Assembly: GCA_963847625.1 (NCBI GenBank)
Contig: CAWKAR010000024.1
Location: 64,001-128,000 of the forward strand
Source: a candidate division FCPU426 bacterium
GTDB lineage: Bacteria; Oederibacteriota; Muellerivitia; Muellerivitales; Muellerivitaceae
Reading direction: 5' to 3'
DNA length: 64,000 nt
Program-made: the position numbers and the translations under genes
Part shown: one piece after another, positions 28,969 through 37,215 of the stretch
Numbering within the stretch: position 1 is the first letter of the stretch
How the letters are laid out: each line of letters starts with the position of its first letter
The notes under the pieces: model-generated
Database searches by the model: none
What the model was told of the DNA's origin: nothing
Seen by the model: the letters and a program-made list of their open reading frames with translations, nothing else

Positions 28969-29067
28969 GTGGTTCGATTGGGCTCACCACTGGTTTGTCG
29001 AACGGGCCAGTACGCAAGGCCTGCAATCCAGTTCCTGATACTCAGTAACCCAATTCCGAGCACCCAA

Positions 29068-29164
29068 AACCCATTAAAGGGCCTCAACCCCCTAAACGGA
29101 ACCGGACGAACCCATTAAACGGGGCGGAACCCATTAAACGGAGCCGGGCGAACCCATTAAACGG
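29068..29164. repeat. Five AACCCATTAAACGG-like direct repeats
   Basis: Copies at 29068, 29086, 29109, 29128 and 29151, with alternating spacing 18/23/19/23. Confidence 0.85.
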
Positions 29165-29166
29165 GA

Positions 29167-29654
29167 GATAAACTGCCCACAAACCCAGTGTCATTTGCCG
29201 GTAGGGGAGGATAACCCGCCCACAAATCCAGTGTCATTTACCGGCAGGGGAGGATAACCCGCCCACATTCCCAGTGTCATCTGCCGGAAAGGGAGGATAA
29301 CCCGCCCACAAACCCAGTGTCATTTGCCGGTAGGGGAGATAAAGTGCCCACATTTCCAGTACAGGGGAGGATAACCCGCCCACATTCCCAGTGTCATTTG
29401 CCGGAAGGGAGGATAAACCGCCCACATTTCCGGTGTCATTTACTGGCAGGGGAGATAACCCGCCCACATTCCCGGTAGAATCTGTCGGCGGGGGGGATAA
29501 ACTGCCCACATACCCGGTAGACACTATCGGCAAAACCGGTAGACAAGCCCGAAAACCAGTAGACACCGTCGGCAAAACCGGTAGAAAAAGCAGAACCGCT
29601 AGAATGCACAGGAGGATAAACGCCCACATTCTCGATGTCATTTGCCGGTAAGGG
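29167..29654. repeat. Degenerate 42-43 bp tandem repeat array (about 10 units)
   Basis: Consensus GATAACCCGCCCACATTCCCAGTGTCATTTGCCGGTAGGGGAG. Units start at 29167, 29210, 29253, 29296, 29338, 29370, 29412, 29454, 29496 and 29615. Confidence 0.9.
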
Positions 29655-30146: not shown

Positions 30147-31679
30147 ATGTTCACTATCGTCCGTTGCGGAGCGGGTGATCAGGCACCTTTTTTTTGGTTG
30201 AACGTCTCTGAACTTAGTGGAAGGGCGGTGGGTTGGAACTACGACGACCTCTACCGTTTGATCAACGAGACGGTCACAAGTCCAAAACCAGCCGACCCGA
30301 CGGGAGGGGTGACCTACACCTATGACCCCGTGGGGAACCGGCTAACGAGAAATTCGAGTTTAACAGGCATTTCAAACCAAAACCTCGTATATGACGGTAC
30401 CGGGGATGATCGGATGACCTCGGATGGAGCCTCACCCTCGGCAAATTATAGTTACGACCTCAACGGCTCAGTCACCCAGGCCGGGCCTTCAGGGTCTGTG
30501 ACGGTTTACACCTATGACAGCTTGGCCCGGTTGACAAGTGTTACGGCACCGAGCCTAGCGGAAACATTTATCTATGACGGGGATGGAAACAAAGACAGCC
30601 AGACTATTAACGGTGTAACCACTAATTTCCTGGTCGATACCCATAGCCTGACCGGCTATGCACAAGTGGTAGATGAAATACAAAATGGAAGCGTAACCCG
30701 CACCTACACTTATGGAACTAGCCGCATTTCTGAAGACCAATTCAATGGAACAAGCTGGAACTTGAGTTACTTCGGCTATGACGGTCAGGGCTCTGTTCGT
30801 TATTTAATGGACTCAAACGGAAATATAACTGACCAACTGGACTATGATGTCTTTGGAACGCTGATAAATCAAACCCACGTGGGAACACCAACACCAAATG
30901 TTTATTTCTATGATGGAGAACAATTAGACGAGGATACCGGGAACTACTATTTAAGAGCCCGCTGGATGAATCCTGGAATTGGAAGATTTCAGACGATGGA
31001 CACGTTTGAGGGTGATCCAAATGATCCTCTGACATTACATAAATATTCCTTTGGCTCTAATAATCCGGAAAATATGATTGATCCAAGTGGTAATGAAGGA
31101 GAAGAAGGTAATCCTACAATTAATGTCCAATTACCAAAATGGCCTGCTAATGAAGTTTCTAATGTCATGAATGCAGTGGAGGGGATAGGATGGAATAATC
31201 AGCAAATTCAAAATTCTCTTTATAGAGAATGCGGAGATTTTTTATCTGGGGTTGATGACGTATTCCTTGTTTACCTGGATAAAGCTCACGTGGAAATAAA
31301 CGACCAAAAATGGTCTCGAAAATACAATCTGCCACTTCCGCCAGTTCAACCTCCTTTTTTAACAGCTGGTCAACAAAAAGAACTTACTGATGATCCAAAT
31401 GCTATGGACCGATATAACAATATAGGTTTGGCTGTGGCACAAGCAAGGCAGGAAGATAGTAATGGATCTGATCCAACATTCAATGCAATCTATTTCCGTG
31501 ATAGAACCACCTCTAGTAAAGTTAACACTGTAGATACAGATAAAAATGGGGTACAGCATATAAATAATTATGATGGTTTTTTACACACGCAAAGACATGT
31601 TAAAGGGCTAGAAGAAAAAAAGGTGCTTATACTCACAAATATACAGATATATGGGCTTGCACTTTCGGGAGGCCATTAA
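30147..31679 (+). CDS. Orphan Rhs core fragment with C-terminal toxin domain (N-terminally truncated)
   Basis: YD repeats, Rhs-associated core YDGEQLDEDTGNYYLRARW...GRF, and NPENMIDPSG boundary at about 31080, then an AT-rich tail of about 195 aa. Rhs-like sequence starts at about 30196. Confidence 0.9.
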   Translation: MFTIVRCGAGDQAPFFWLNVSELSGRAVGWNYDDLYRLINETVTSPKPADPTGGVTYTYDPVGNRLTRNSSLTGISNQNLVYDGTGDDRMTSDGASPSANYSYDLNGSVTQAGPSGSVTVYTYDSLARLTSVTAPSLAETFIYDGDGNKDSQTINGVTTNFLVDTHSLTGYAQVVDEIQNGSVTRTYTYGTSRISEDQFNGTSWNLSYFGYDGQGSVRYLMDSNGNITDQLDYDVFGTLINQTHVGTPTPNVYFYDGEQLDEDTGNYYLRARWMNPGIGRFQTMDTFEGDPNDPLTLHKYSFGSNNPENMIDPSGNEGEEGNPTINVQLPKWPANEVSNVMNAVEGIGWNNQQIQNSLYRECGDFLSGVDDVFLVYLDKAHVEINDQKWSRKYNLPLPPVQPPFLTAGQQKELTDDPNAMDRYNNIGLAVAQARQEDSNGSDPTFNAIYFRDRTTSSKVNTVDTDKNGVQHINNYDGFLHTQRHVKGLEEKKVLILTNIQIYGLALSGGH

Positions 31680-31680
31680 A

Positions 31681-32577
31681 ATGAAAATATTATCTTTTAC
31701 CATCTTGATTTTATTAACGAATCTCGTTTTTGGTCATAACATAATTAATGAAATGAAATATGTGGATTCTGCTCTTAAAGTAACTAGGTTGTTCGACGAT
31801 AAAAATGAGTATAAAAAATTAAAAATAAATATAGATAAAGAAATAAAATTTGATTCCATCCATGGTGGGCACGAAGGCGCATTTTTAATAATTAGAACAG
31901 ATACAAATCGGGCGTCTTTTTTGAATTTATATTTTGATGCACAAGATAAAATTACAGTAATGATGGATGCAGACGTTGATATTAAAAAAGATGGGACGTT
32001 TATAATTGGCGATCATGGCGGCCCAATTGAAAGAATCGATGATTCCATTAAAAATTTATTAAAGTGTGTACCAAATTTATTTCTATTGGATATAGAAGTT
32101 AAACCAAATATTATTTTAAAGATGAAAGAAAATTATCTTACCGATAAACAAATAAAAATATTGAAATATATATTTGAAACCTACAGCACTTATCCCCATG
32201 GCCGTGATGAAATGGATGCAGAGAACTGGTCTATATATTGCAAATCCACCAAAAATTTAAAATCCAATCTAAATCAGGATGTTACAGAAATTTTTGCAAT
32301 CTATAAAATGCCAATAGGGGTGAGAGGAAATGGTGGCATATTTGGAACTTTTAGCATGGAAAATGATAACAAGATTAATCCAATTTTGTTTGCAGGTATT
32401 AATACAGAAGATAAAACAAATAGGAAATTAGAAGTATTTGAGGATCGTGATACACCGAGAATTGGTAATTTAAAAGAAATTAATAAAGAATTAAAAATAA
32501 TAAAAGATATCAATCCGGTTAAGATTCAAATCACTCGAAAAGTTAACCGCCAAATTATTTTGAAACCATTAAAATAA
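31681..32577 (+). CDS. Putative Rhs immunity protein (exported)
   Basis: ATG 1 nt after the toxin stop, GGAGG RBS, very AT-rich, signal-like MKILSFTILILLTNLVFG. Confidence 0.65.
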   Translation: MKILSFTILILLTNLVFGHNIINEMKYVDSALKVTRLFDDKNEYKKLKINIDKEIKFDSIHGGHEGAFLIIRTDTNRASFLNLYFDAQDKITVMMDADVDIKKDGTFIIGDHGGPIERIDDSIKNLLKCVPNLFLLDIEVKPNIILKMKENYLTDKQIKILKYIFETYSTYPHGRDEMDAENWSIYCKSTKNLKSNLNQDVTEIFAIYKMPIGVRGNGGIFGTFSMENDNKINPILFAGINTEDKTNRKLEVFEDRDTPRIGNLKEINKELKIIKDINPVKIQITRKVNRQIILKPLK

Positions 32578-32631: not shown

Positions 32632-32832
32632 ATGAAACATTTAATGTTTATTTTGATTTTAGTTATTCCTCAAGGGGTGGCCTTAGGGACGGCACTGCCC
32701 ACACCCGTCAACGTTCACATTCAACGTTCTCCCATGGACAAGATTGTCATCCGTCTCCGACAACAGAATATCCAAATCCAACGGGATTTAAGGGCGGGCA
32801 AGCTGACCAAGGACCAAGCCAAAGCCCTTAAG
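32632..32832 (+). pseudogene. Secreted protein paralogous to 3457-3840, truncated by IS1380
   Basis: RLRQQNIQIQRDLRAGKLTKDQAKALK aligns with RMKNQLLRIHEGVKTGKLTKQQAQALR. Similarity stops at the IS1380 boundary. Confidence 0.75.
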
Positions 32833-34536
32833 CCCGGATTTCCCAGATGAAATTACCTTTCGAGTATAATAAGGCGTCGTTTGGCCATACAAACAAAGGT
32901 TTTTCTTCACTTTGGGGACCACGAGAGGGGGGAATGCAATGGGTGAAAGGGGAAAAGACGCTCTTCGGGTGGTTTTTGATCCTGGTCTCAAGCTGGAGTT
33001 CCATGGCGCGAAGGTCACTTCCGATGGCGGGTTGATTCCCTATCGTGAACTCGATGAAGCCTTTGGTTTGACTGACAGAACGGAAAACCTTCTGAGGGAT
33101 CGGCGAACCGGCAAGAATACGCAACATACGATGACGGCGCTTTTGCGGCAATCAATCTACAGCCGCCTAGCCGGTTACGAGGACACCAACGACGCAGAAC
33201 GATTGAGTGTTGATCCGGCGATGCGGCATGTGATCGGAGGACGGGCCAAGGAAAAACAAGCTGCCTCCACCAGCCAGATGGGACGTTTCGAGACGGAAGT
33301 TCTCACCCAGTCGAAGAACCAGACCGGTCTGATTGACCTATCTGGCCAATGGATTGATGGTGTCCATGAAAAAAAGCCCATCCAGCAGATTATTCTCGAC
33401 ATGGACAGCTCCGTGAGTGAAACCTACGGGGACCAAGAAGGTTCCTTGTACAACGGTTACTTCGGCTGTACCTGTTACCATCCCCTGTTTTGTTTCAACC
33501 AGTTTGGCGATTTGGAACGGGCAATGTTGCGCAACGGCAATGTGGCCAGCGCCCACGAGTGGCGGTCGGTTCTTGAACCAGTGGTTGTCCGTTATCGGGG
33601 TCTTTCCATCAGCCGTTTTTTCCGGGGTGACGCGGCCTTCGCCCGTCAGGAACTATACGAGTACCTAGAAGACGAAGGATACCTTTATGCGATCCGCCAA
33701 CCCGCCAATGGCGTGCTACAAAGAGAAATTGAGCCATTTTTGACCCGTCCCGTGGGCCGCCCTTCCCACAAGCCGGTTGTCCGGTATCACAGCTTCCAAT
33801 ACCAAGCCGTCAGCTGGGACAAACCCCGCCGCGTGGTGGCGAAGATTGAGCATCACAACGGCGAACTTTTCCCGAGGGTGGGTTTCATCGTGACGAACAT
33901 GCGACGACCGGCACCCCAGGTGGTGAAGTTCTACAACGGAAGAGGTACGGCTGAGCAATGGATCAAGGAGGGAAAGTACGCGATGAAGTGGACAAGACTA
34001 AGCTGCCACGACTTCGCGGACAACCAAGTAAGGTTGCAACTATTTGCACTGGCTTACAACTTGGGCAACTTCCTTCGCCGTCTAGCCCTGCCAGAACTGG
34101 TGAAGCATTGGTCGCTGACGACGTTGCGAGAAAAACTTATCAAAATCGGAGCTAACGTTATCCGCCATTCGCGGTACGTGGTTTTCCAGATGGCGGAGGT
34201 GATGGTTACCCAACGCCTGTTTGCTGAAATCCTTGGACGGATAAGGCTACTGGCGATGGTAAGGCCGCGAGCGCCAGTACTGCGATAACCGCAGGAACAC
34301 TTCATGGCTTCAACCGGATCAACCATCGTGGGATAGGTGTGCGTTCACAACGAGAATTGGCTTTCTGGAAGGTCATTTTCAACTTTTTTGGGGCACAGAA
34401 ACCCTTTTTTGGGCTCATTTCGCTGGCCTTGGGCCAGAAAATTCCGGATACGGGTGGAAGAAGCGGGGGGGGGGAATATAATGAGAAACAAATTACCCGG
34501 CAATGTTTTCAGAGAAGGTCATCTGGGAAATTCCGG
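32833..34536 (+). mobile_element. IS1380-family insertion sequence
   Basis: IRs CCCGGATTTCCCAGATG and CATCTGGGAAATTCCGG. 5-bp target duplication TTAAG at 32828-32832 and 34537-34541. Confidence 0.92.
32939..34288 (+). CDS. IS1380-family transposase
   Basis: VTSDGGL, GYEDTND, LDMDSS, RGDAAF and YNGRGTAEQWIKEGK. Confidence 0.95.
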   Translation: MGERGKDALRVVFDPGLKLEFHGAKVTSDGGLIPYRELDEAFGLTDRTENLLRDRRTGKNTQHTMTALLRQSIYSRLAGYEDTNDAERLSVDPAMRHVIGGRAKEKQAASTSQMGRFETEVLTQSKNQTGLIDLSGQWIDGVHEKKPIQQIILDMDSSVSETYGDQEGSLYNGYFGCTCYHPLFCFNQFGDLERAMLRNGNVASAHEWRSVLEPVVVRYRGLSISRFFRGDAAFARQELYEYLEDEGYLYAIRQPANGVLQREIEPFLTRPVGRPSHKPVVRYHSFQYQAVSWDKPRRVVAKIEHHNGELFPRVGFIVTNMRRPAPQVVKFYNGRGTAEQWIKEGKYAMKWTRLSCHDFADNQVRLQLFALAYNLGNFLRRLALPELVKHWSLTTLREKLIKIGANVIRHSRYVVFQMAEVMVTQRLFAEILGRIRLLAMVRPRAPVLR

Positions 34537-34546
34537 TTAAGAACGG

Positions 34547-34810
34547 ACAAAGATAGCATGTATGGGCCAGCAACCTACGTAGTAGCTTTGATCAATAGTA
34601 GCTGATCAAAATAACGCGGGTTGCTCCTGGTAAGGAGCCTATCCGCATACGGAGGGCTGACCCATGGGAAATAATAGGAACAAAGATAGCATGTATGGGC
34701 CAGCAACCTACGTAGTAGCTTTGATCAATAGTAGCTGATCAAAATAACGCGGGTTGCTCCTGGTAAGGAGCCTATCCGCATACGGAGGGCTGACCCATGG
34801 GAAATAATAG
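34547..34810 (+). repeat. 133-bp tandem duplication of the IS110 left end including the first 14 nt of the ORF
   Basis: 34547-34677 is identical to 34680-34810. Start codons at 34664 and 34797. Confidence 0.92.
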
Positions 34811-35903
34811 CACGGTGGTAGGGCTGGATGTTCATAAGGAAACGATCACGATTGCAGTTTTAAGGCCCGACAAGGATCGTCCTGATCCCTCGGTTACGGT
34901 TGAAAATCAGCCATCAATCATTGAAAAGAAAGTACGGGAACTTAATCGCCGCCATGCCCCACTGGAATTCGTTTATGAGGCTGGGCCTGGGGGATTTGCT
35001 TTGTATAGGCAGATTACCCAATTGGGACACCCTTGTGCGGTGATTGCGCCCGCATGGATGCCGATGAAACCTGGGGACCGAGTCAAGACGGACCGAAAGG
35101 ACGCAGAAAAGCTGTCTTGGTATTGGCGCATGAGGGATTTGAAAGAAGTCCGGGTACCCACGCCCGAAGAAGAATCCGTGAGGGATTTGCTGCGTGTCCG
35201 GGAAGATGTTCTCGCAAACCAGTTGAGAGCCCGTCATCGGTTATTGAAATTCCTGCTTAGGCAAGGCCGGATTTATCGGGGTGGCAAACACTGGACCCAA
35301 GCCCATAGGGAATGGTTGAGACACCAGAAGTTTGAGCTGCCAAATCTCGTAAAGACCTATGAAGCGAATTACCGAATTTTGGCTGAGATTGACGTGCACT
35401 TGGCTGATTTGAATTGTGAAGTTGAATTGCTGGCACAAGACGAGAAATATCGAATTGCTGTCAGCTATTTGAAATGCCTGAAAGGCGTTAACACACTCAC
35501 GGCCATGACTTTATTAGCAGAAAGCGGAGATTTCAGGCGGTTTAAAAACGCCCGCAGTTATATGCGATATACGGGAATGGTCAGTTGGGAAGACAGCACC
35601 GGAAGCCATGTTTACCGGGGCGGGATTGTCAAATCCGGAAATGCCCATTTGAGGCGAGTGCTAGTCCAAGGGGCATGGACCTATCAGCTACGAAGCCTTG
35701 GGAGTCCAACACTCGCTAAACGGAGAAAAGGTTGTCCCCCGGAAGTTATACATTTAGCACGAAAAGCTGATGAACGTTTGCATTTGAAGTTTCGGCGGAT
35801 GGTAAGCCGAAACAAACGGTCTCAGGTGGCGGTAGTGGCCATCGCACGGGAATTGGCTGGCTTTATCTGGGCGATTGGACAGATGATCCCATCCGATCAG
35901 TAA
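34797..35903 (+). CDS. IS110-family DEDD bridge recombinase
   Basis: GLDVH, YEAG and KTDRKDA (DEDD residues), EDSTG catalytic-serine loop, KSGNAHLRR and AIARELA. Confidence 0.96.
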   Translation: MGNNSTVVGLDVHKETITIAVLRPDKDRPDPSVTVENQPSIIEKKVRELNRRHAPLEFVYEAGPGGFALYRQITQLGHPCAVIAPAWMPMKPGDRVKTDRKDAEKLSWYWRMRDLKEVRVPTPEEESVRDLLRVREDVLANQLRARHRLLKFLLRQGRIYRGGKHWTQAHREWLRHQKFELPNLVKTYEANYRILAEIDVHLADLNCEVELLAQDEKYRIAVSYLKCLKGVNTLTAMTLLAESGDFRRFKNARSYMRYTGMVSWEDSTGSHVYRGGIVKSGNAHLRRVLVQGAWTYQLRSLGSPTLAKRRKGCPPEVIHLARKADERLHLKFRRMVSRNKRSQVAVVAIARELAGFIWAIGQMIPSDQ

Positions 35904-35931
35904 TAGATCCGATGAGAAGAAAAAGAAGGAC

Positions 35932-36133
35932 GAGCTCTGATTTCAGGAGCGTGGCGCGGCACGGAGAACCCTCGACGACCCCTTGTGCAATGAAGTCTTA
36001 TTTCATGACGCACGGACAAAGATCGAGGCAGCTCCCGACGACAGGTCATCATGCGTCCCTGCCCTTTGGGGTAATACGCGAATATCAGTTTGATCAACCG
36101 TCGGAAATGGCTACGCTCTTGGAATCAGGGCTC
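35932..36133 (+). ncRNA. Predicted bridge/seek RNA of the IS110 element
   Basis: 35932-35955 pairs with 36110-36133 and encloses two stem-loops. Their internal loops carry matches to the target (GACCCCTT, GGACAAAG) and to the donor junction (ATATCAG). Confidence 0.8.
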
Positions 36134-36198
36134 TGTCGTGCTGGTCCGTGAAAAGACCAACACCCTAGAATCTGAAGGTTGACTGGCCCATACATATC

Positions 36199-37215
36199 AG
36201 GGGTCAGGCCTACAATTTACACTTTATAACCACTGATTATTTAATAAAATACCGATATGCCAAGGCCAAAACGGATTCATTATGAAGGGGCCGTGTATCA
36301 CGTCACTTCCCGCGGGAATGAGCGCCGCAAGATAGTGATGGATGACTCGGACCGATGGTTATTCCTGAGAATTCTCGGGGAAATGATCGGGGAAAACGGG
36401 ATCGTATGCCACGCCTGGGTTTTAATGGACAATCATTACCATCTTTTACTGGAAACCCCGCAAGCCAATTTATCCGTGGCCATGAAACATCTGAACGCCC
36501 AATATACCCAGCGATTCAACAAGAAACACCACAGGACTGGTCATTTATTCCAAGGCCGGTATAAGGCCATCGTTATCGAGAAGAACAGTTATTTACAGGA
36601 ATTATGCCGGTATGTGGTATTGAATCCCGTCCGGGCCAAGATGGCCAAGCAACCGGGGGGATGGAAATGGAGCAGTTACCGGGCCACGGCAGGCCTGGAA
36701 AGGCCGGAACCATGGTTGGAGGTGGATTGGATCTTGGGACAATTTGGGAAAGAGAGGAAAAGAGCCCAAAAGGCCTATAGGGAATTTGTGGAAGAGGGAA
36801 TGGGGAGAAAAGAAACGCCATGGGAAAGGTTGCATTCCAGGGTTTACCTGGGCGGGAAAGAATTTTTAGACCATGTCCATGAAATGGGACAAAAACACAA
36901 ACACTTGGATATTCCGAAATACCAAAAACATGTGGTGAAACAAAACCCGGAAGCCTTATTAAAAAAGGTGGGGGAAATATACGGTATGAAGCCCGGGGAA
37001 ATACTGAAAGCGGGGAAAAGAAGGAGCGAAGCGAGGGAGGCGGCGGTATATTTGCTGAAGAAGGAAGCGGGATTAAGCCTGAGGGAAATAGGGGAAAGAA
37101 TGGGAGTGGGTTTTTCAGCGGTGGGGAACCAATGGGCAAAGGTCAAAAAGAAGCTGGGGACGGATAAAAGGTTTGCTCAAAGACTTGTAAAGTGTAAATT
37201 GTAGGCCTGACCCCT
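36199..37215 (+). mobile_element. Core of a RAYT-like element bounded by inverted repeats
   Basis: AGGGGTCAGGCCTACAATTTACACTTTA (36199-36226) and its exact inverse (37188-37215). The outer GGACAA/TTGTCC parts are displaced to 34545-34550 and 38731-38736 by the IS110 copies. Confidence 0.8.
36257..37204 (+). CDS. REP-associated (RAYT-like) Y1 HUH tyrosine transposase with C-terminal DnaA_C-like HTH
   Basis: YHVTSRGN, LMDNHYHLL (HUH), GHLFQGRY, RYVVLNPVRA, WSSY and C-terminal SLREIGERMG. The stop codon lies inside the right IR. Confidence 0.92.
   Translation: MPRPKRIHYEGAVYHVTSRGNERRKIVMDDSDRWLFLRILGEMIGENGIVCHAWVLMDNHYHLLLETPQANLSVAMKHLNAQYTQRFNKKHHRTGHLFQGRYKAIVIEKNSYLQELCRYVVLNPVRAKMAKQPGGWKWSSYRATAGLERPEPWLEVDWILGQFGKERKRAQKAYREFVEEGMGRKETPWERLHSRVYLGGKEFLDHVHEMGQKHKHLDIPKYQKHVVKQNPEALLKKVGEIYGMKPGEILKAGKRRSEAREAAVYLLKKEAGLSLREIGERMGVGFSAVGNQWAKVKKKLGTDKRFAQRLVKCKL

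What the first reader, a model, noticed from the sequence alone, without database searches (positions are those of the whole stretch)
35932..36133. Readable bridge/seek RNA: the target-binding loop spells the insertion site
Seen: in the 297-bp non-coding right end, 35932-35955 pairs with 36110-36133. Inside it, stem CCTCGA (35970-35975)/TCGAGG (36023-36028) and inner stem GTGC (35985-35988)/GCAC (36010-36013) frame an internal loop. Its strands are GACCCCTT (35977-35984) and GGACAAAG (36014-36021). These are 8-nt exact matches to opposite strands of the two halves of the target CCTGACCC-CT-TTGTCC, and both cover the CT core. Known: this is the left/right target-guide architecture of IS621 bridge RNA, and IS1111-group elements encode the RNA downstream of the ORF. 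Inference: a reprogrammable recombinase ortholog with a long (8-nt) right target guide, so a specific 13-14 bp target.
Basis: partly seen in the sequence, partly recalled or inferred. Interest (0 to 1): 0.88.

Follow-up and report, generated by a model that had tools for sequence, protein, structure and literature searches.

The report
RNA-guided jumping gene with retargeted guide
This is a new member of a known family of bacterial jumping genes that carry a small RNA whose loop spells out where they insert; here the loop was recently rewritten to aim at the end repeats of another mobile element, and the site it reads is about 10-11 letters, not 13-14.

Summary
Window 34686-36200 is an IS1111-type IS110 element (9 near-identical copies in the genome) whose 297-bp right end encodes a structured RNA. 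All stems lie at the stated coordinates, and 22 of 24 outer-stem pairs show two-sided changes in 43 homologs. Across homologous loop types the loop follows the insertion flanks: 5 left-guide and 3 right-guide positions plus the CT core.

The '8-nt right guide, 13-14 bp target' is not supported. The outer base of each 8-mer is a conserved scaffold U-G pair, and only 1 of 7 copies with both flanks matches all 13 bases. The working target is about 10-11 bp.

- a donor-binding arm with handshake covariation;
- a circle-junction promoter;
- recent natural reprogramming relative to a 92%-identical sister;
- a one-base register shift of the left guide;
- the target is the GGGGTCAG end of TIRYT terminal repeats.

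Two target bases kept in 9 of 9 sites are not encoded by the guide and remain unexplained. No RNA data were available. Verdict: new member of a known kind (ISCARN28-like clade).

The parts
34686..36200 (+). IS1111-type IS110 element (IS-A), 1515 bp including one copy of the AG core; 9 near-identical full copies in the genome
34684..34685 (+). AG core at the left junction (CT on the strand the guides copy); the second copy is 36199-36200
34691..34703 (+). left subterminal inverted repeat, 13 bp, 7 bp in from the end counting the core
   Evidence: sequence
36183..36195 (-). right subterminal inverted repeat, 3 bp before the core; overlaps the -35 box TTGACT (36179-36184) of the predicted circle-junction promoter, whose -10 box TAGCAT is 34687-34692
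   Evidence: 24 of 24 loop types with both ends give TTGACN-N17/18-TANNNT
34797..35903 (+). DEDD recombinase, 368 aa; D11, E61, D99, D102 and S267 lie in the motifs that align with the IS621/ISCro4 catalytic motifs
35932..36133 (+). predicted bridge/seek RNA: a 24-bp closing stem around a target-binding arm and a donor-binding arm
35975..35983 (+). left strand of the target loop: AC, left target guide GACCC (35977-35981), core CT (35982-35983); the core sits one position later than in 38 of 45 loop types
36015..36023 (+). right strand of the target loop: GACAA (3-4 bases effective), core AG (36020-36021), handshake AT (36022-36023) matching the first bases of the left end
36036..36103 (+). donor-binding arm: right donor guide ATATCAG (36082-36088) equals the right end 36194-36200; handshake bases TT (36089-36090); left donor guide not identified with confidence
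36201..36226 (+). target half-site and terminal inverted repeat of the neighbouring TIRYT element; the mirror copy lies at 37188-37213
36257..37204 (+). Y1 tyrosine transposase with a DnaA-type C-terminal HTH (TIRYT / TnpA-REP subclass 2.1 type); both of its terminal repeats carry an IS-A copy
   Evidence: family description in PMC6006769
37214..38728 (-). second IS-A copy, inverted; differs from the first at 1 of 1515 positions
34547..34677 (+). tandem duplicate of the left end, 133-bp period; its left flank is the exact GGACAAAG; real duplication or assembly join not resolved

Best explanation
IS-A is a recently active IS1111-type element of the ISCARN28-like clade. Inferred from known family biology: it circularises, the end junction forms a sigma-70 promoter, and the transcript supplies the recombinase and the right-end RNA. 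Shown by covariation in homologs: the RNA's first internal loop picks the target by pairing with both strands around a CT core, about 5 bases on the left and 3-4 on the right, a 10-11 bp address. Partly shown: the second arm engages the element's own right end and makes handshake pairs, so the RNA most likely works as a full bridge RNA. Inferred from the tree and the sister element: this lineage recently rewrote both guides to aim at the GGGG end of TIRYT terminal repeats. In doing so the left guide slipped one base towards the inner stem, and the donor-arm handshake base stayed in the sister's state (T, where the present target calls for G).
For: Left-guide positions match flank positions -1 to -5 in 91, 91, 87, 74 and 66% of 32 loop types, against 29-35% in 2000 shuffles; no shuffle reached these values. 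Right-guide positions match in 95, 85 and 62% of 22 types against 65, 31 and 34%. In 12 hand-picked pairs, where guides differ the flank follows its own guide 74 times, the partner's 6 times and neither 13 times. The donor-arm handshake base matches the first flank base in 81% of 32 types against 29%; the target-loop handshake base matches the left end in 24 of 24 types against 67%. 22 of 24 outer-stem pairs have changes on both sides. Against the sister G051 (92% aa), 7 of 18 loop bases differ but only 22 of 184 elsewhere in the RNA, p 0.006, and its flank follows its own left guide. In the shifted register the 5 left-guide bases match 43 of 45 site positions; in the usual register 18 of 45, with a core mismatch. 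The order of guides is the IS1111 order described in PMC11187229.
Against: No transcript or activity evidence was obtained. The left donor guide showed no clear covariation in the close clade, and elements whose left end starts TT keep the same ATC. The donor-arm scaffold and ATATCAG were fixed by my search pattern, so their invariance is by construction; right-donor covariation rests on 3 exact cases and 2 one-mismatch cases read by eye. Target positions -6 and -7 are kept in 9 of 9 sites but match the loop in 0 of 9. One site (C39) matches only 8 of 13. The A-rich left flanks are partly a property of the target repeats, which inflates right-guide matches in this genome. Loop types are related by descent, so the p-values overstate.
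Confidence: 0.88

Rival explanations
1. Seek-RNA-only mode: only the target arm guides, and the donor ends are bound by protein through the 13-bp subterminal repeats; the second arm is structural or a precursor part.
For: For ISEc11 a short 82-nt RNA was enough for movement (PMC11187229). No left donor guide covaries here. IS-A has spread to 9 copies although its donor-arm handshake base mismatches all 9 right flanks.
Against: The donor-arm handshake base covaries with the target in 81% of 32 types. The right donor guide changes with the right end in L014, L022 and L128 (by eye).
Confidence: 0.2
2. One reading: both guides are 8 nt long and define a strict 13-14 bp target.
For: The exact GGACAAAG flank occurs at 2 of 9 left ends. 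No unoccupied 12- or 13-bp perfect site remains in the genome. PMC11208160 notes longer right guides in some orthologs.
Against: The outer bases are a conserved scaffold pair. Flank position -5 matches in 3 of 9 and -6 in 4 of 9. There is no covariation beyond -3. 6 of 7 complete sites are imperfect.
Confidence: 0.07
3. Base pairing is only part of target choice: an extra determinant (protein contact with the two bases beyond the left guide, or with the TIRYT repeat or its transposase) directs IS-A to the repeats. This adds to the best explanation rather than replacing it.
For: 9 of 9 occupied sites have AG after the guide match, against 9 of 63 empty AAAGGGGTC sites (Fisher p 6e-7) and 8 of 24 outside long ORFs (p 9e-4). 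L046, an 89%-identical relative from a metagenome contig, also sits in the repeat just before a TIRYT-like gene. A structural gate is reported for ISPpu10 (10.64898/2026.03.19.712850).
Against: There is no hairpin enrichment in 45 nt of flank (p 0.17), and the two window sites have none. Among 5 metagenome relatives with this left guide, only 3 keep T at -6 and 3 keep C at -7. The clade shows no general bias at these positions. Purging of insertions elsewhere, or copying between repeat arms, could give the same pattern. The ORF mask is crude.
Confidence: 0.35
4. The loop-flank match is chance, or a hairpin without guide function.
For: No direct RNA evidence. No Rfam match at E up to 1.
Against: Position-specific covariation across 32 and 22 loop types and in sister pairs; compensatory changes in the stem.
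Confidence: 0.01

Closest known systems
ISCARN28 (ISfinder; one of six elements given a predicted bridge RNA in PMC11208160 Fig. 6d / Extended Data Fig. 10c)
   Same: By eye, its aligned domains in that paper's Supplementary Table 1 share the clade motifs of this protein (DVHKETI, EAGP-G, GDRVKTDR-DA, EDS-G, G-I-K-GN-H-RR). It is listed there among elements with predicted loop-target pairing.
   Different: No alignment or tree with it was run, and I could not see the figure, so its RNA fold, target and register were not compared. My 13-base scaffold motif was not found in the searchable supplements (one file unreadable, one cut).
IS621 / ISCro4 bridge recombinases
   Same: DEDD plus serine catalytic set, CT core covered by both guides, left and right target guides on opposite strands of one internal loop, handshake bases after the right guides.
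   Different: Only distant protein similarity (E 1e-10 and 6e-7). The RNA lies in the right end, not the left, and is closed by a 24-bp stem. The left guide is 5+2, not 7+2. There are long subterminal repeats, and the left donor guide is weak or absent.
ISEc11, ISPa11, ISKpn4 seekRNA systems (IS1111 family, PMC11187229)
   Same: Downstream non-coding region, subterminal repeats with 7 and 3 bp extensions, junction promoter, same guide order, natural reprogramming between close relatives, targeting of repeats of other elements.
   Different: The protein is 368 aa against the 330-350 aa given there for typical IS1111 proteins. Here the target is a TIRYT terminal repeat. Processing to a short RNA was not testable.
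TIRYT / TIRtron elements (TnpA-REP subclass 2.1; PMC3733652, PMC6006769)
   Same: The neighbouring gene has Y1_Tnp plus a Bac_DnaA_C-type HTH and terminal repeats fitting GGGGWSAS. This is the target, not the element itself.
   Different: A search for IS110 together with TIRYT listed only the classification paper; I saw no report of an IS110 element aimed at these repeats in the library searched.

Membership tests
IS110 family (broad) | DEDD RuvC-like domain plus Transposase_20 domain with catalytic serine | tested here: met
   PF01548 and PF02371 above cut-off; NF033542 204.6 bits against cut-off 140; motifs located
IS110 family (broad) | site- and orientation-specific insertion with a 2-bp core and no further duplication | tested here: met
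   9 right ends all read AG then GG; empty repeat sites carry a single AG
IS1111 group | subterminal inverted repeats of 11-13 bp, 7 bp from the left end and 3 bp from the right | tested here: met
   13-bp perfect repeat at 34691-34703 and 36183-36195; definition
IS1111 group | long non-coding region downstream of the transposase gene | tested here: met
   297 bp right against 111 bp left
IS1111 group | transposase falls in the core IS1111 clade across its length | not tested
   No tree with reference IS1111 proteins was built. By eye it is like ISCARN28 and unlike ISAzs32; its 368 aa is above the range given.
IS1111 group | circular intermediate with an active junction promoter | tested here: inconclusive
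   Promoter consensus is present in 24 of 24 joined ends, but its -35 box was part of my end-finding rule; no circle joint was seen in 4 contig sets.
bridge RNA | target-binding internal loop with left and right guides that covary with the target and both cover the core | tested here: met
bridge RNA | donor-binding loop with right and left donor guides | tested here: inconclusive
   Right guide is a 7-nt match, with covariation in 3 distant elements by eye; no clear left-guide covariation.
bridge RNA | handshake bases after the right guides pair with the non-cognate DNA | tested here: met
   Met for the clade: 81% against 29% and 24 of 24 against 67%. IS-A itself lacks the donor-arm handshake.
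bridge RNA / seekRNA | RNA is made, binds the recombinase and is needed for recombination | not testable with these tools
   Needs bench work; no RNA run was listed.

The most novel reading that the evidence does not exclude
IS-A is a natural snapshot of retargeting. It shows that an IS1111-type target loop tolerates a one-base shift of the core-pairing register and loss of the donor-arm handshake. It also gains two bases of specificity beyond its guide through a non-pairing contact with TIRYT terminal repeats or their transposase, making it a dedicated parasite of TIRYT elements.
Probability: 0.25. Interest if true: 0.62.

Novelty: new member of a known kind. Interest (0 to 1): 0.4.

Why it matters
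RNA-guided IS110 recombinases are sought as genome-editing tools, and rules for IS1111-type RNAs are thinner than for IS621. This clade gives a guide map from natural variation (about 5 + CT + 3, with handshake positions) and a naturally reprogrammed sister pair. It corrects the hope of a long, highly specific guide: 10 perfect 10-bp sites lie unoccupied in this one genome. The register shift and the two unexplained target bases are directly testable and bear on how much specificity lies outside base pairing. The principle itself is published.

Tried and rejected
Rfam: no match at E up to 1. Two pattern scans of viral contigs found nothing. Sequencing runs: no RNA holder listed, which says nothing about expression. 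Four DNA contig sets laid on 34400-37200 gave no joints and did not bridge the duplicated left end. No promoter or terminator signal above chance inside the linear element. A hairpin gate on the target flank was not supported (p 0.17). A left donor guide in the 14 nt before the inner donor stem showed no clear covariation. Extending the left guide by bulging four bases out of the CCUCG stem was considered by eye and dropped: it would open a stem paired in nearly all 43 sequences and does not fit several relatives. RNAalifold's small hairpin over the right donor guide has only unvarying pairs, and single-sequence folds mostly leave that stretch open. The CGCGAATATCAG hits L117 and L118 were unrelated sequence. 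The plasmid search gave 698 records, all under 60% identity; none was fetched. Three look-ups of earlier findings returned nothing.

Full report
OBSERVATION. All quoted strings are at the quoted places. The 24-bp closing stem has 20 Watson-Crick and 4 G-U pairs. The + strand folds far better than shuffles (z -6.07, 0 of 200) and better than the - strand (z -1.78). The region is the 297-bp right end of an element at 34686-36200. It encodes a 368-aa IS110 recombinase with the catalytic motifs in place and has 13-bp subterminal repeats 7 and 3 bp from its ends, the IS1111 pattern described in PMC11187229. The genome has 9 full copies at 99.8-100% identity and 2 extra exact left-end pieces, so the element moved recently.

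NATURAL SITES. The 9 right flanks read GGGTCAG in 7 cases, with one change each in the other two. The 9 left flanks are looser: A at -1 in 9 of 9, A at -2 in 8, C at -3 in 7, A at -4 in 7, G at -5 in 3, G at -6 in 4. The exact GGACAAAG is found at 2 of 9. Both are in this window and are most likely the two arms of one inverted repeat. The flagged copy itself is preceded by GAACAAAG, because 131 bp of the left end are duplicated in tandem; I could not tell a real duplication from an assembly join. Of 7 copies with both flanks, matches to the 13-bp site are 11, 12, 13, 11, 11, 8 and 9.

HOMOLOGS. Sources were 26 loci from genome contigs, relatives in 99 genomes of the phylum (4 with a match, own genome included) and 67 metagenome loci found with a pattern from the donor arm. 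60 of the 67 have a related transposase upstream, 49-100% identical over all parsed loci with long hits. 86 loci carried the pattern. I dropped 1 partial duplicate, 2 without the right anchor, 3 without the left anchor and 2 with 10-nt loops, leaving 78 loci and 45 loop types. Left-end calls that gave implausible element lengths were discarded, except the window locus with its duplicated end.

STRUCTURE. In 43 aligned RNAs, 22 of 24 outer-stem pairs show changes on both sides, and no shuffle or slid control approached the observed values. The target loop is 9 x 9 nt, bounded by CCUCG/CGAGG and a U-G pair (38 of 43 U-G, 2 C-G, 3 unpaired). The last T of GACCCCTT and the first G of GGACAAAG are therefore scaffold; that G is present in 45 of 45 types while flanks have G there in 18%.

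COVARIATION. The four shifted-register types were left out. Loop positions 6, 5, 4, 3 and 2 match target positions -1 to -5 in 91, 91, 87, 74 and 66% of 32 types (shuffled 29-35%; 0 of 2000 shuffles as high); position 1 does not (16% against 23%). Right-strand positions 5, 4 and 3 match in 95, 85 and 62% of 22 types (shuffled 65, 31, 34%); positions 2 and 1 are not significant. The types are kin, so I also compared 12 hand-picked pairs, some sisters on the tree and some more distant: own guide 74, partner's guide 6, neither 13. The working address is about 5 + CT + 3, perhaps 4 in IS-A. Ten perfect 10-bp and five perfect 11-bp sites are unoccupied in the genome. A second element in the same genome (50% identical, 2 copies) has the same scaffold, other guides and flanks that follow them.

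DONOR ARM. Its loop holds ATATCAG, identical to the last 7 bases of the element. My pattern fixed this word, so its invariance proves nothing. By eye, three distant elements change it together with their right end (L014, L022, L128) and two differ by one base (L005, L126). The base after it was not fixed by the pattern and equals the first flank base in 81% of 32 types against 29%. The base after the target loop's AG equals the first base of the left end in 24 of 24 types against 67%, though the T-type elements form one clade. These are the handshake positions described for IS621 (PMC11208158). A left donor guide showed no clear covariation. Joined ends give a sigma-70 consensus in 24 of 24 types.

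RECENT RETARGETING. The sister element in G051 (92% aa) differs at 7 of 18 loop bases but at 22 of 184 elsewhere, and its flank follows its own left guide. 38 of 45 types have the core CT at loop positions 7-8. IS-A has it at 8-9, and its sites fit only that register (43 of 45 against 18 of 45). The tree places the shift after the split from G051 (support 95/81). A few other C-run loops also look shifted, so slippage in C runs is a likely cause (inference). IS-A keeps the sister's handshake T, which mismatches all 9 of its own sites.

TARGET. The two window copies sit in the two terminal repeats of a Y1 transposase gene with a DnaA-type HTH. This fits the TIRYT class with GGGGWSAS repeats (PMC6006769 and PMC3733652). 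A third copy sits in the 5' repeat of another such gene, whose 3' repeat lacks the AG core and is empty. Several other copies sit in stand-alone repeats of the same family, judged by eye, and the family also has empty members. A metagenome relative (L046, 89% aa) has the same arrangement. Positions -6 and -7 are kept in 9 of 9 sites but are not in the guide; empty guide matches have them in 9 of 63, or 8 of 24 outside long ORFs. A hairpin gate as reported for ISPpu10 was not supported (p 0.17), and only 3 of 5 metagenome relatives with this guide keep each base. Selection after insertion, copying between repeat arms, or a protein contact remain open.

COMPARISON AND VERDICT. It works like IS621 bridge RNA and like the IS1111 seekRNAs, and it meets the IS110 and IS1111 features that I could test. 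Its nearest named relative by eye is ISCARN28, which already has a predicted bridge RNA. It is a new member of a known kind; interest 0.4.

WHAT I SAW OF EACH PAPER. PMC11208160: passages and supplement search hits (one file unreadable, one cut, figures not seen, so its ISCARN28 model may already show features described here). PMC11187229: parts 1-3 of 9 and passages. PMC11208158, PMC6006769, PMC3733652: passages. 10.64898/2026.03.19.712850: part 1 of 8 and passages. 10.64898/2026.08.31.748434: part 1 of 6; its half-match idea may explain the weak C39 site. That no IS110 aimed at TIRYT repeats and no register shift were seen in print rests only on the listings of searches. The labels IS-A and IS-B are mine.

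Noticed in passing
window 34547-34677 / 34680-34810: Tandem duplicate of the element's left end (133-bp period). Its length is close to that of a left-end piece at a contig end (C26), so it may be an assembly join.
   Followed up: partly
window 32846-34537 (approximate ends): An IS1380-family element with inverted ends, flanked by TTAA, lies directly left of IS-A and appears to interrupt a small gene starting at 32632: three mobile elements nested at one spot.
   Followed up: no
G000 C3:32588-34105 and C13:3588-5105: Second element of the same clade (50% aa, 2 copies) with the same RNA scaffold but other guides; possible cross-talk between the two RNAs and recombinases in one cell.
   Followed up: partly
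G000 C14, C21, C30: Third, distant IS110 element (29% aa, 3 copies) with its own downstream non-coding region; not analysed.
   Followed up: no
window 29067-29654: Array of about 9-10 degenerate 42-43 bp direct repeats without unique spacers, next to a short open frame; possibly a coding repeat.
   Followed up: no
window 30147-32577: Rhs-repeat ORF (510 aa, looks 5'-truncated) followed by an overlapping 308-aa ORF without Pfam match: looks like a polymorphic toxin and immunity pair.
   Followed up: no
L059, L081, L092: Right-end RNAs left without an intact transposase gene upstream (truncated elements); could act in trans.
   Followed up: partly
L136, L138, L008, L009: Distant relatives whose right end appears to finish in AA rather than AG, with TT in the left guide: the core itself may covary (by eye).
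   Followed up: no
L093 right junction: A 13-base duplication spanning the right end and the target half-site.
   Followed up: no
G000, several contigs: A family of stand-alone GGGGTCAG...ACACTTTA repeats, often with an inner hairpin and an A-rich left flank: probable non-autonomous TIRYT derivatives.
   Followed up: partly
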